Assembly: GCA_020137815.1 (NCBI GenBank)
Contig: CM035353.1
Location: 2,046,001-2,110,000, forward strand
DNA length: 64,000 bases
Direction of reading: 5' to 3'
Source of the DNA: Hormiphora californensis
Lineage: Eukaryota > Animalia > Ctenophora
In this document: positions 4,801-36,400 of the stretch, piece after piece
How positions within the stretch are numbered: position 1 is the first letter of the stretch
Layout: the number at the start of each line of letters is the position of its first letter
The notes under the pieces: generated by a model
What the model was told of the DNA's origin: nothing
What the model saw: the letters and a program-made list of their open reading frames with translations, nothing else
Databases searched by the model: none
Made by a program: the position numbers and the translations under genes

Positions 4801-7800
4801 ACTAAGGCACAGTGGAACAGCTAGTTTGTAAGCTCCTTCCTCTAGGTTAGCTCCGTTAGCAGTCACCCAGTCCGTGTTGATAGTGATAACTCCCATGATA
4901 ACAGGGGGTATGGCAGCCAGGAAACACCCAACACCAGCACAATAGGATAGAACACGGGCTACCTATAGAAGGGGGAGGGGTTACCATGGTAACTAGGATT
5001 ATCTAGGTGAGTGTGATAGTGATAACTCCCATGATAACAGGGGGTATGGCAGCCAGGAAACACCCAACACCAGCACAATAGGATAGAACACGGGCTACCT
5101 ATAGAAGGGGGGGGGGGTTACCATGGTAACTAGGATTATCTAGGTGAGTGTGATAGTGATAACTCCCATGATAACAGGGGGTATGGCAGCCAGGAAACAC
5201 CCGACACCAGCACAATAGGATAGAACACGGGCTACCTATAGAAGGGGGAGGGGTTACCATGGTAACTAGGATTATCTAGGTGAGTGTGATAGTGATAACT
5301 CCCATGATAACAGGGGGTATGGCAGCCAGGAAACACCCAACACCAGCACAATAGGATAGAACACGGGCTACCTATAGAAGGGGGAGGGGTTACCATGGTA
5401 ACTAGGATTATCTAGGTGAGTGTGATAGTGATAACTCCCATGATAACAGGGGGTATGGCAGCCAGGAAACACCCAACACCAGCACAATAGGATAGAACAC
5501 GGGCTACCTATAGAAGGGGGAGGGGTTACCATGGTAACTAGGATTATCTAGGTGAGTGGGATAGTGATAACTCCCATGATAACAGGGGGTATGGCAGCCA
5601 GGAAACACCCGACACCAGCACAATAGGATAGAACACGGGCTACCTATAGAAGGGGGAGGGGTTACCATGGTAACTAGGATTATCTAGGTGAGTGTGATAG
5701 TGATAACTCCCATGATAACAGGGGCCGGTATGGCAGCCAGGAAACACCCAACACCAGCACAATAGGATAGAACACGGGCTACATATAGAAGGGGGAGGGG
5801 TTACCATGGTAACTAGGATTATCTAGGTGAGTGTGATAGTGATAACTCCCATATGATAGAAGGGGGAAGAGTGGGTTATATATAATCCATATTATATAGT
5901 GGTCTTATTATCATGGGGGAAGGGCCGTGTATTTTACCTACAATCCATTACTATACCTGTGGTGTTTTTGATGACAGGACACGCTGGAAATACGCCTGCC
6001 AGGGGATGCCGCCACAGATCATCATAATAAGACCATCAACCCACAGAGAGGGGTATTCTATCTCACCCAGTACGCTCTTTGTCTTGTTTACCAGGACATC
6101 ATTTTCAAGGATCGTGAAGTTCACTGTCTCCTAATTAGATGGGGGAGGGGGGTAAATTATAGCAATTGGGTGTAGTACCATGGTTGTTTGAAGGGAAAAA
6201 TTCTTGACAAGTCTGGGTAACCCATAACCGCAACCGTCTTCATCCAATGTTACCCTGGTACAATATGGTTTACTTCTCATAGTCTACCGAGTCAGGAAAT
6301 ACTGGTCCCTGATTGGCTGATAACCAGTCACGTGATCTAAATAACGAGTTCTGATTGGTTGTTTACTTAATTCGGTCGGTTCCTGCCTACTATACTGACC
6401 TGGAGGGGAGATGTCACGTTCTCATTGGTTATCATGAACGGTAGAGCCAGGATGAGTCCGACAAAGATGGAGATTAGTTGGAAAACATCCGTAAAGGCAA
6501 CAGAGTAAAGACCTGAAGAAAGATAATACCGTATATCATTATTTTTATCAACGTCTAGTTTTCTAAAATATTGACCGATTATCCTCCTCTTCTCTCCTTT
6601 TACCCCTCGCCTCTCTCGTTCTCACTCTCCATCTCGCCCTCTCTCTCCCCAGTCCCCGTTCCCATCTCCTCCTCAGTCTCTCTATGTTATAAATCTCTCC
6701 CTCAAGCTCACCCAGTCTCCCTTCCCATCTCCGCCTCTCTACATGTTAACACACACCTCTCTTCACCCAGCTTTAACATACCTCCAAAAAGGGTGTAGAC
6801 CATAGCAAACATGGCGGATACTATGATCGACGTATTCTCACTGATCAGACCCTGACAAATGACCTGGAGGGAGGAGCCCAGGGCAGCAAGGATGGCAGCA
6901 GACCAGAGGATCTCTCCGGAGAAGGCGGGGATGTACAGCAGAGATCCCAACTTTCTTCCGTATTTCACCTGATAAATATGATGTTGGGTAAGAGAGCTTT
7001 CGAGAGGGAGTAAACTGTAAAGGATGTTGAATTTTTGGTTGGTAAAGAAAGACACTTGTTATATGACTCTGAGAACATAAAATTTATTCTTAGTATAGAG
7101 TCAGTAAATAGGTTAAATGATAATATGTTCTAACCTTCCTTTACATTTGTAAAAGTGTGGGTGAGACATACCTGGAAGGGGTCGAGCATGGTGATGAATT
7201 TCATGGCTCGCATCTTCTTGGCAAAGAACAGCCCACCAATACAGAGAGATGTTGCGAAACAGAACGGGGCTTGACAGTTCAGCTGCAGGAGATTGCATTA
7301 TAAATTAGCTAAAAGTATCACAAAATTATCCAGCTAGATAACATGAGTCTCAAATGATAAAGCAGTATTCTGGAATTTCAACTTACAATTCCACCGCTAA
7401 TGACGGCTTCTGCGGCACCGTTAATGTAGCCTCCCCCTACCCATGTTGCCGTCATTGTAAAGATTCCAACCGCGTAGTTAATGTTCCTTCCTGTGTGGAA
7501 ATCGGACTAGGTCATTCCGTGGGGGGAGGGGGGGGGGGGTGTTTTCAATGTTCATTCCTAACAACACCTATACAGCTAGCCTCTATGATTGTACTAGCTC
7601 TCTATTATCTTCCTACAGTACTCACCAGCTAGCATCAGATCCTCGGTATTAGTTAGTCCAGATTCACCGTTATCTGCAGGCTGCTGTTTCTTCTTCCCAT
7701 TCATCATCTCCATTAATCTGAAACGAGGGCGCCTATCAACACAAGCTGTAAAATGATTTTGTCAAAGGGGGTGTTAGCTGTGATATATGTGGTGTATAGG

Positions 7801-33400: not shown

Positions 33401-36400
33401 TGCCCGGGTGGATGCCCGAAGGGCATCCACCCGGATGATCGTTTTAGCACGTGTGCTAAAAAGATCATAAAGGGTTTAGAAATCTCGGATTTGAAATAGT
33501 AACTCGAGCGTGGTCAAAATCGCGTGTGTCACGGTAGCAGCATAGTAACTGCTCCTTCATAAAATCAAATAACTGTTTTGATGAAATATGATGTCAGGAC
33601 GCTTATTTTTCAAAGCTGTGCGCGGCGCTCACAACACTGTTGCTGAAGGGGTGAGGGTAGAGTAAAACAGCTGTGTAACTGCATATACATACAGGACGCA
33701 TGCATCTCACATTGTGACCAAGCCTTGATATTGTGATACTGATAGTGTGATACTGATCCTGTCGACGGAGGGCAGGGAAACACCGCATTATGAATACATA
33801 ATGCAATAATTCTTGTTACTCTCGGGGAATTCCTGCTGGATCAATATTTATCAAACAGGATAGAAACAATCCTTGTGTTTTACTAAAAAATTCTATAAAT
33901 TTTTAATATGCTGAATTGCATTGCTCTGCTTCTTTGTTTGGGCATGTCAACCTCACTACTTATATTCAGAATGTGTTAGTAAAACACGACGATTGTTTCT
34001 ATCCTGTTTCTTACATACTGATTAAACAGGAATTCCCCGAGAGTAACAAAAATATCTCAGTGACGGATGGGTCGATTTTGAGCGGCAAAAAGGCAAAATG
34101 TTCATAAAACTAATCTCTACAACCTCGAACAAACTTGTCCAATTCTGATTCTGTCCACTCTCACTTTAAAACAAACTAAGTGATATATATTGTGTTGAAT
34201 CTGAATCAGGATTAGTTCCATTTTCGTACCTGGATTAGCTACAATGAAAACCTTGGCGGACTGTGGGAACAGGGTCTCCAGAGAGAGATCGTCCCACCGA
34301 TCGCGAACTGGCTTGGGGTAGTCAACATTCTGCAGGGGGATATTGCAATTGTGAGATCGAACAGCAGGAACCGACCGGAGCAAGTAAACAACCAATCAGA
34401 GCTCGTTATTTAGGTCACGTGACTGGTTATCAGCCAATCAGGGACCAGTATTTCCTGGTTCGGTCGGTTCCTGTTTTTTAGGACCTATAATGAATGCTCC
34501 TGTCCTCTCTCCTCACCTAGTTTTTGTTTTCTTCAAATCCATGTTATTTTCGGTACACACTGCACGCGGAAAGGATCGAAAGCTATGTTACTCACCGAAA
34601 CTACAAGTTGTGCGGGTAGGTATGATTTCTCTTCGCACCAGTGGCGTGTTACCGTGGTAACGCCGTCATTGTTATAGCTTGGCATCTTGCCACGGATCTT
34701 CCTCACGCTCACCATCACCTTCACATCACCCACCTCGATACCCCACCTGCTCTTCAGCCTAGAGGGGGAGCGAGACGTGGAGTTAGTTAACATCAAGATA
34801 TTTTCGAAATATGACAAGAGCCTTTCCCCCGAGGGTGTCCCTAAATCGGGGTCCGACTGTACAACATCATATGAAATACCTTCCCTGATTACTCAATCAC
34901 AAATCTACAAAACTCTCTGTAAAAGGATAGAGCACTGTATCGCCGTCTAGCAAACAAAATGATAATCTAGAGTAAAAGACATATTGTGCTCTTTCTGAAA
35001 ACACTTACGAGATGCATTCTCGACTCTTGAGATGTTTGAAGCAGTCCTTTTTGGTTGGTACAGCTGCCTTCTTAACAACACAATTGTCCTCGAACAGGTA
35101 ATCCTCTGTTTCTGTATGGATACCTATAAAATACAGCAATATCTTAGAAACCCTGTAATGAGACGCCCCTAATTCAAGCTTTAAATGGAAACTTCTTAAC
35201 TTTGACCTTTAACCTAGCCATGAACCTAGGCTACACTGAAAATCAGTTGACAGGATCAACTATATTTATTTATCGACCGAATCAGGAAATACTGGTCCAT
35301 GATTGGCTGATAACCAGTCACGTGACCTAAATACGAGTTCTGATTGGTTGTTTACTTGTTTCGGTCGGTTCCTGAACTATCTATTTACCGACAACTAGAG
35401 CCTCCACTAGGTGAGGGTACTCAACAAAGACAATCTCTCCAACCAACTTTTGGTATTCTTCAAGGGGTCTGTTCTCCTGGGAGGTTATTTGATATTTAGT
35501 TTTGAAAATACGATCACTTATATACACGTTCAACTTGATCTGTCGAACTCTCAACCCTCACAGAGTGCTTGGCTACGAAACCACCCCGCCGGGCGACCTT
35601 CGTGCGCGCTGGCAAGGGGTAACTTCGTAACCAAACAGAGTGCAGTGTCATTTTATGAAATAATATGCCGTGTGAGCTATAAAAAAACATTCAACCAACA
35701 TGAATATCTGTCGACCCGTCATTTTATTAATTTAAATTAAATTATTAAATTTAAAAGCGCGCTCTGTGATGGTAGATCCAATCCAAGTACCTGAGTATCA
35801 ATGTTGAGGATACAGCTGACGTCCCTGCTGTTCATATTGAACACCCTGCACCCCACGGCATCAAACTCCACAGTGTGCTCCAGGTGCCGGGTGGTTGGGA
35901 AACCCATCTCGAAGGGATTCATAGCAGGGTCAGGGTACCGGGGTTTAATGTCCTCAGGGGCAATGTAAAACCAGTCCTTTGATTCGTAAGCGATCCTGGA
36001 GAAATAAGGGAGAGTTAGATCCTAAACAGAATCACAGAGATGAGAATAATTTACACATGTATGTCATAATTATATATATAGCTTCTATCTGCAAACAATC
36101 TAAACAATGCCATTTGAGTCATGTTTATTTTGTGCCGCATTTCATTGCCCGCCATATTCGTCTTAGTTGTCATAATACACATGTTCACCTGCAGCGTTAT
36201 TGTGATTAATATTAGCAGTGTCAACTTGTTTTAAACTGTCATTCCCCCTTATTTGTAACCCTAGTTTAGTGAGATTATTCAACAACCATCGTCACACCAC
36301 CACCGCCCCTATATATAATTCAAACATATATCTTACTTGGCATGACAAGAAGTAATATCAGGAAATACGTCTGGGAAGGATGACGGATAGTATCCTTTAC

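What the first reader, a model, noticed from the sequence alone, without database searches (positions are those of the whole stretch)
6285..35389. 109-bp hAT MITE repeatedly positioned 12-17 bp from 5' splice donors
Seen: six of about 12 copies end a nearly fixed distance into the intron from the upstream exon: 14 bp (6385/6400), 12 (22694/22707), 12 (23768/23781), 17 (26559/26577), 12 (32540/32553) and 14 (35374/35389). These fall in three genes and both orientations. The copy at 8786-8894 also has a GTTAGT donor-like hexamer at the 12-bp spacing. Inference: targeting to exon edges (nucleosome linker or a sequence preference overlapping the donor), or survival only in the safe zone of short introns.
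Basis: partly seen in the sequence, partly recalled or inferred. Interest (0 to 1): 0.7.

Follow-up and report, generated by a model that had tools for sequence, protein, structure and literature searches.

The report
Mini-transposon crowding behind intron starts
Half of the twelve copies of a small jumping DNA element in this window sit 12-17 bases inside the start of an intron, likely because the element's preferred landing sequence resembles an intron start and landings that damage splicing are likely weeded out, rather than because it measures a fixed distance.

Summary
There are 12 copies of a 109-bp inverted-repeat element, all in introns of four genes (SLC5A7-, RNF41-, XRN1-, Aurora-like). 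Six end 12, 12, 12, 14, 14 and 17 bp from donors that splice into open frames. This beats chance in the window (P 2.5e-5; 4e-3 with introns capped at 100 bp). The GTTAGT at 8894 is not a donor. Flanks of other copies in sequencing contigs give a hAT-type palindromic target, (G/C)TAnnTA(C/G), which resembles the donor GTAAGTA. The same data show no GT majority at the 12-bp register: a fixed spike holding 15-20% of copies or more is rejected, while a broad 8-20 bp zone is mildly favoured. Best reading: target-motif overlap plus purifying selection in short introns; landing at +1..+8 would duplicate the donor. The 8-bp motif alone predicts only about 0.15 copies at 12 bp, so an excess remains. 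Unexplained: 10 of 12 copies lie within 50 bp of an exon, and the same element end faces the exon in 9 of those 10. No genome was held, so the decisive histogram could not be run.

The parts
6277..6385 (+). MITE copy, far end truncated, no TSD; 14 bp from SLC5A7-like donor (intron starts 6399)
6400..6512 (-). SLC5A7-like exon 6, upstream of the 14-bp copy
   Evidence: matches choline transporter CHT1 residues 181-210; next exon matches 239-266
8786..8894 (+). MITE copy with perfect 8-bp TSD; GTTAGT at the 12-bp register is not a donor; real donor 109 bp away (9003)
13911..14008 (+). MITE copy with internal deletion, no TSD, deep in RNF41-like intron 7; non-donor GT at the 12-bp register
22586..22694 (+). 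MITE copy (reference), perfect TSD at intron +5..+12; 12 bp from RNF41-like donor 22706
22707..22785 (-). RNF41-like exon 3
   Evidence: open frame; gene name from recalled sequence likeness
23660..23768 (+). MITE copy, perfect TSD at intron +5..+12; 12 bp from RNF41-like donor 23780
23781..23870 (-). RNF41-like first coding exon
26451..26559 (+). MITE copy, both ends intact, no TSD; 17 bp from XRN1 donor 26576
26577..26687 (-). XRN1 exon upstream of the 17-bp copy
28422..28534 (+). MITE copy, perfect TSD, 49 bp from XRN1 donor 28583
32431..32540 (-). MITE copy in the opposite orientation; TSD at +5..+12 with one mismatch and 4 extra bases; 12 bp from XRN1 donor 32552
32553..32647 (-). XRN1 exon upstream of the 12-bp copy
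32991..33087 (-). MITE copy, one end truncated, inside a short tandem duplication; 27 bp from XRN1 acceptor
34365..34473 (-). MITE copy, no TSD; 35 bp from XRN1 acceptor
35274..35374 (+). MITE copy, far end truncated, no clean TSD; 14 bp from XRN1 donor 35388
35389..35476 (-). XRN1 exon upstream of the 14-bp copy
   Evidence: other exons of the gene hit Pfam XRN_M and SH3_12
53102..53210 (-). MITE copy, no TSD; 29 bp from acceptor of Aurora-like intron 2, which an RNA contig shows spliced out

Best explanation
The element is a 109-bp non-coding DNA transposon with inverted ends that duplicates 8 bases at GTAnnTAC-like sites, and its copies likely pile up just behind splice donors because the donor resembles that target and because selection likely removes landings that break or duplicate a splice signal. 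Shown: the ends, the 8-bp duplication, the target majority sequence, the short host introns, and the +5..+12 register of the three 12-bp copies. Inferred: the donor GTAAGTA offers the target at two registers, +1 (spacing 8) and +5 (spacing 12). Landing at +1 would leave a second, equally strong donor behind the element and put a stable hairpin right after the donor, so it would be purged; landing at +5 usually would not. The 14- and 17-bp copies have lost their duplication and may be older or rearranged. The result is a broad donor-side pile-up with a modest 12-bp peak, not a measured distance.
For: Target majority GTAAATAC / GTATTTAT / CTATATAC in loose-end groups of 83-173 contigs from two samples; G is the first base in about 43-44% of the listed groups. 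Tyr (TAC/TAT) precedes the element peptide in 17 of 107 protein contexts, P 3e-6. The window's donors match the 6 informative target positions at a mean of 4.3 for +1..+8 and 2.7 for +5..+12; GT at +5/+6 in 29 of 58. A duplicate donor from spacing 8 would score above the 10th percentile of true donors in 88% of 58 introns, against 3% for spacing 12. The element RNA folds into a long hairpin, z -5.7. Seven of 12 host introns are 96-164 bp when empty. Acceptor-side copies stop at 27-35 bp, donor-side at 12-17, the asymmetry reported for mammalian TEs (PMC3088655, abstract and section 8). Flat 8-20 bp models gain 1-9 log units over no enrichment.
Against: An 8-bp weight matrix (only the first-base G share is measured, the rest assumed) predicts 0.14-0.17 copies at 12 bp in these host introns against 3 seen (P about 3e-4), and 4-8 times more at 8 than at 12, where the window has none. 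One 12-bp TSD (TTGCTAAT) matches only 2 of 6 target positions. The 23660 copy made a 9.2-bit duplicate donor and persists. Small contig groups show AG|GT at spacing 8 (X5 n=15, n=19; G at -9 in X6 n=147), so spacing 8 may not be purged. The model does not explain 10 of 12 copies within 50 bp of an exon (P 7e-7 after repeat masking) nor the 9-of-10 polarity (P 0.02, post hoc).
Confidence: 0.5

Rival explanations
1. The transposase is steered to exon edges by chromatin (linker DNA beside exon-positioned nucleosomes, or a tethering factor), possibly with one transposon end facing the exon; selection only trims the exon and splice-signal hits.
For: 12 of 12 copies are intronic; 10 of 12 lie within 50 bp of an exon where 12-16% of allowed intron positions lie. 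The same end faces the nearer exon in 9 of 10, and side correlates with orientation, Fisher P 0.033. Linker bias is reported for intron-forming DNA transposons (PMC9860276, passages). An asymmetric Hermes transpososome is in print (PMC10368747, search listing only).
Against: Host exons are 79-113 bp, shorter than a nucleosome, so base-precise phasing to the donor is not expected (inference). A second, TA-targeting MITE is also near exons (3 of 7 within 50 bp; difference from the hAT element not significant, P 0.13-0.17). Polarity could come from orientation-dependent selection. n is 12 and both patterns were found after the fact. No chromatin data.
Confidence: 0.2
2. The window is a high draw. 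Short ancestral introns and the donor/acceptor safe-zone asymmetry give a mild donor-side bias, and three hits at exactly 12 are luck in one window picked out of many.
For: No GT majority at -12/-11 in groups of 131, 173 and 147 contigs (CA, AA, GA) and no C at +12 in six groups at the other end. 17% per end, the window's rate, has P below 0.002 under all backgrounds tried. Val at residue -4 (GT at the 12-bp register) in 11 of 107 protein contexts against about 6% background, P 0.10. P of a triple is 0.04 at a 100-bp cap.
Against: P is 2.5e-5 with real intron lengths. The contig groups are a small, unexplained subset of thousands, and gene models are probably biased against donor-adjacent copies. 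Broad-zone models fit the contig data slightly better than no enrichment.
Confidence: 0.2
3. Copies landed anywhere and later deletions (transposase-made adjacent deletions or ordinary intron shrinkage) brought them up to the nearest distance that splicing tolerates.
For: Six of the nine copies within 35 bp of an exon have no TSD. Adjacent deletions by hAT elements are recalled, not from a call.
Against: The three 12-bp copies keep their TSD, so their spacing is primary. In three TSD-less copies (6277, 33087, 35274) the damaged end is the one facing away from the exon.
Confidence: 0.1

Closest known systems
Non-autonomous hAT elements (MITEs) of the hobo/Hermes/Ac type
   Same: Short terminal inverted repeats, 8-bp TSD, palindromic target with GT...AC; hobo's motif is GTNCGNAC, earlier NTNNNNAN (PMC3276498 Table 4, passages).
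   Different: Target majority here is GTAnnTAC with an AT-rich centre, which is close to a splice donor. No autonomous partner was identified.
Donor-side bias of intronic TEs within 20 bp of exons in human and mouse (Zhang, Romanish, Mager 2011, PMC3088655)
   Same: Elements very close to exons sit on the donor side because donor signals are about 6 bp and acceptor signals 20-50 bp (abstract and section 8).
   Different: There, TEs near exons are depleted overall, and DNA transposons were left out of that analysis. Here a DNA transposon is in excess near exons in one window.
Introners (Gozashti et al. 2022, PMC9860276)
   Same: MITE-like, TSD-bearing, gene-associated; linker bias proposed (passages).
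   Different: This element does not form introns. It lies inside longer introns and supplies neither splice site; ctenophores are not mentioned in the main text.

Membership tests
hAT-type MITE | Terminal inverted repeats | tested here: met
   18-bp arms, 17 of 18 complementary
hAT-type MITE | 8-bp target site duplication | tested here: met
   Perfect in 4 of 12 copies (8786, 22586, 23660, 28422), near-perfect in 1, absent in 7
hAT-type MITE | Target consensus NTNNNNAN / GTNNNNAC | tested here: met
   Loose-end majorities GTAAATAC, GTATTTAT, CTATATAC against hobo in PMC3276498
hAT-type MITE | Short, non-coding, high copy number | tested here: met
   109 bp; 12,093 and 24,272 contigs laid in two DNA runs (contigs, not copies); the one open frame is 36 codons
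hAT-type MITE | Autonomous hAT transposase element with the same ends | not testable with these tools
   None in the window; no genome held
Introner | Element forms the whole intron and supplies or creates its splice sites | tested here: not met
   All 12 copies lie inside longer introns whose host donors and acceptors restore the frame
   12-bp spike at 15-20% or more rejected from contig majorities; up to about 10% per end not excluded
Nucleosome-linker-targeting DNA transposon | Insertions fall in linker DNA | not testable with these tools
   No chromatin data

The most novel reading that the evidence does not exclude
A ctenophore hAT transposase inserts directionally at exon edges, presenting the same transposon end to the exon on both the donor and the acceptor side, so that exon-defining chromatin or splicing machinery guides a DNA transposon into the safest slot of short introns.
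Probability: 0.13. Interest if true: 0.72.

Novelty: new member of a known kind. Interest (0 to 1): 0.36.

Why it matters
If the best reading holds, this is a neat but ordinary case of a transposase target motif that happens to look like a 5' splice site. With thousands of copies it becomes a natural saturation experiment on how close to a donor a hairpin can sit and whether a duplicated donor is tolerated (spacing 8 against 12). If the polarity and exon-hugging hold genome-wide, it would be a new way for a DNA transposon to find a safe site, testable with one histogram. A practical point: the element's one open frame appears in 690 predicted proteins, nearly all listed ones from one eukaryote gene set, so gene models of this animal group are contaminated by it.

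Tried and rejected
No genome was held, so the genome-wide histogram could not be made. Pattern scans found 0 loci in viral contigs, 0 in prokaryote genomes and 5 in metagenome contigs. Those five gave no donor test: three look like intronless transcripts with the element after the stop codon. An XRN1 exon search for full-length relatives found nothing, and the 35389-35476 exon had no PDB match, so that donor rests on frame continuity and motif score. Extended target motif GTnn[8]nnAC: suggested by non-donor GT/AC at that register in about 5 of 18 window flanks (my reading), but not seen in the large contig groups; rejected as a strong rule. No empty-site allele was seen in either read-laying run (18, 22). 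Protein-context test of spacing 8 (Gly at -3): 10 of 107, P 0.23. Introner reading rejected. Earlier scan notes: nothing by sequence, genome or the fixed-distance words; the eight word hits concern other genomes and intron-forming elements. The Hermes nucleosome paper was not held; only its title was seen, in a reference list. Literature searches for this element or for MITE targeting next to donors listed no such report; the library lacks most subscription journals and I read no supplements, where TE libraries of ctenophore genome papers could list this family.
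Full report
What is there. The window is animal DNA with four multi-exon genes on the minus strand. One is an SLC5A7-like choline transporter (exon matches to CHT1 structures). One is RNF41/NRDP1-like (name from recalled likeness; Pfam gave no hit for the 30-aa first exon). One is XRN1 (Pfam XRN_M and SH3_12), and one is an Aurora-like kinase (Pkinase; subfamily name recalled). The organism is probably a ctenophore of the Pleurobrachia group; this rests on my recall that the 'sb/34...' ids are such gene models, not on a call. 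No genome was held.

The element. Twelve copies of a 109-bp sequence with 18-bp inverted ends. Four have a perfect 8-bp target duplication, one a near-perfect one, seven none. It is very abundant: 12,093 and 24,272 contigs of two DNA runs lie on it. Its RNA folds into a long hairpin (z -5.7).

Checking the observation. I annotated 58 introns by reading. An initial 57-intron set had one wrong acceptor and one missing exon, corrected; the insertion simulations used the 57-intron set. Three genes and XRN1 from exon 14 to its end then translate without internal stops. All 12 copies are intronic. Six end 12, 12, 12, 14, 14 and 17 bp from donors of normal strength. Three more lie 27, 29 and 35 bp from acceptors, one 49 bp from a donor, and two far from exons. 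The GTTAGT beside the 8894 copy is not a donor (-0.3 bits; frame donor at 9003). RNA support exists only for the Aurora intron (record 25), not for the six donors. Against uniform insertion into the same empty introns, six or more within 17 bp has P 2.5e-5; with lengths capped at 150 or 100 bp, 4.1e-4 or 4.4e-3. The pattern is more than chance in this window, but the window was picked because of it.

Family-wide evidence. Laying contigs on the 53102 copy returns majority letters for the flanks of other copies (24 loose-end rows shown, 287 not shown). Next to one end the 8 bases are GTAAATAC (X1, n=131; X5, n=173) and GTATTTAT (X6, n=147; same sample as X5). Next to the other end they are CTATATAG/C (n=83, 133, 93) or begin GTTA (n=55, 89, 70). 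The target is thus a palindrome of the hobo type (PMC3276498, passages), here (G/C)TAnnTA(C/G). At the register where a 12-bp donor would put GT, the majorities are CA, AA and GA. Simulation, assuming the tool reports a simple plurality, rejects 15% or more of copies at 12 bp on that end and allows up to about 10%. A likelihood comparison disfavours a 20% spike at 12 by 13-21 log units and mildly favours a flat 8-20 bp zone by 1-9. These groups are a small subset of all copies, selected by the assembler in a way I cannot see. Predicted proteins that read into the element give Val at residue -4 in 11 of 107 distinct contexts (P 0.10) and Tyr at -1 in 17 of 107 (P 3e-6). I had 192 proteins of the 690-963 hits, ranked towards multi-copy models, and kept only contexts with an intact element start.

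How it most likely works. The donor consensus here is GTAAGTA. It offers the target motif at +1 (mean 4.3 of 6 matches) and at +5 (2.7 of 6; GT in 29 of 58). The three 12-bp copies have their duplication at exactly +5..+12. Landing at +1..+8 would regenerate a donor behind the element that is as strong as the host's (median difference -0.1 bit; above the 10th percentile in 88% of introns, against 3% for spacing 12), so I infer it is selected against. This model is incomplete. An 8-bp matrix with mostly assumed weights predicts only 0.14-0.17 copies at 12 bp in these introns and more at 8. One 12-bp site fits the motif poorly, one copy tolerates a strong duplicate donor, and small contig groups hint that spacing 8 does occur.

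What is left over. Ten of 12 copies are within 50 bp of an exon, where 12-16% of allowed intron positions lie. The same element end faces the nearer exon in 9 of those 10 (P 0.02), with donor-side copies in one orientation and acceptor-side copies in the other (Fisher P 0.033). Both were noticed after the fact. A second MITE family with TA targets has 1 of 7 intronic copies or ends within 17 bp of a donor and 3 of 7 within 50 bp of an exon (a degenerate copy near 4400-4530 was missed by the motif). That is not significantly different, so short ancestral introns may account for part of the exon-hugging.

Comparison with what is known. It behaves as a non-autonomous hAT element; the autonomous partner is untested. 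Donor-side bias of TEs within 20 bp of exons is published for mammals (PMC3088655, abstract and section 8). It is not an Introner (PMC9860276, passages). Passages of PMC8527503 and PMC12221973 did not mention this element. Seven searches listed no report of it or of a MITE targeting donors; supplements were not read.

Verdict. Real local pattern, known kind of element, most likely motif overlap plus selection; a fixed-distance ruler is not supported. Interest 0.36. The directional exon-edge reading stays open at about 0.13.

Noticed in passing
window 11930-13300, 40500-41377, 27264-27760, 4960-5800: Tandem arrays whose unit contains a splice site and its exon edge: 41-bp and 29-bp and 47-bp units repeating a donor, and a 136-bp unit repeating an acceptor and exon start.
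   Followed up: no
window 280-450, 9196, 17274-18493, 22930-23071, 24824-24908, 31526-31699, 33257, 34859, 47889-48852: A second MITE family with TA flanks and CAGTCGGACC ends; one copy ends 15 bp from an XRN1 donor. Used as a control.
   Followed up: partly
window 22586-22694 (all copies): The element core carries two CCAAT boxes around a GTCACGTGAC palindrome (E-box), a promoter-like arrangement (motif names recalled).
   Followed up: no
P0002-P0193: The element's single open frame appears in 690 predicted proteins longer than 70 aa and 963 cluster representatives: gene-model contamination.
   Followed up: partly
L002, L003, L005: Related copies lie just after stop codons of intronless, transcript-like contigs (cathepsin-, PP2C- and RhoGDI-like by recalled likeness), so the element also sits in 3' UTRs.
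   Followed up: no
window 14858-16240 and 55023-56422: Two copies of a 1.4-kb element made almost wholly of 530-610-bp inverted arms.
   Followed up: no
window 43062-43774 (+): Two short plus-strand ORFs with a signal-peptide-like start inside XRN1 intron 8: a probable nested antisense gene.
   Followed up: no
window 45376-45486 and near 44448: XRN1 exons 6 and 8 appear frameshifted by single bases, probably assembly errors.
   Followed up: no
window 49042-51351 and 57688-58620 (-): Two long single-exon ORFs (769 and 310 aa) with no Pfam hit above the curated cut-off.
   Followed up: partly
window 32950-33130: A roughly 50-bp tandem duplication of an XRN1 acceptor and exon start brackets the truncated 32991-33087 copy.
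   Followed up: no
flanks of other copies: Majority letters are A-rich on the 5' side and T-rich on the 3' side of the target over about 20 bases.
   Followed up: partly
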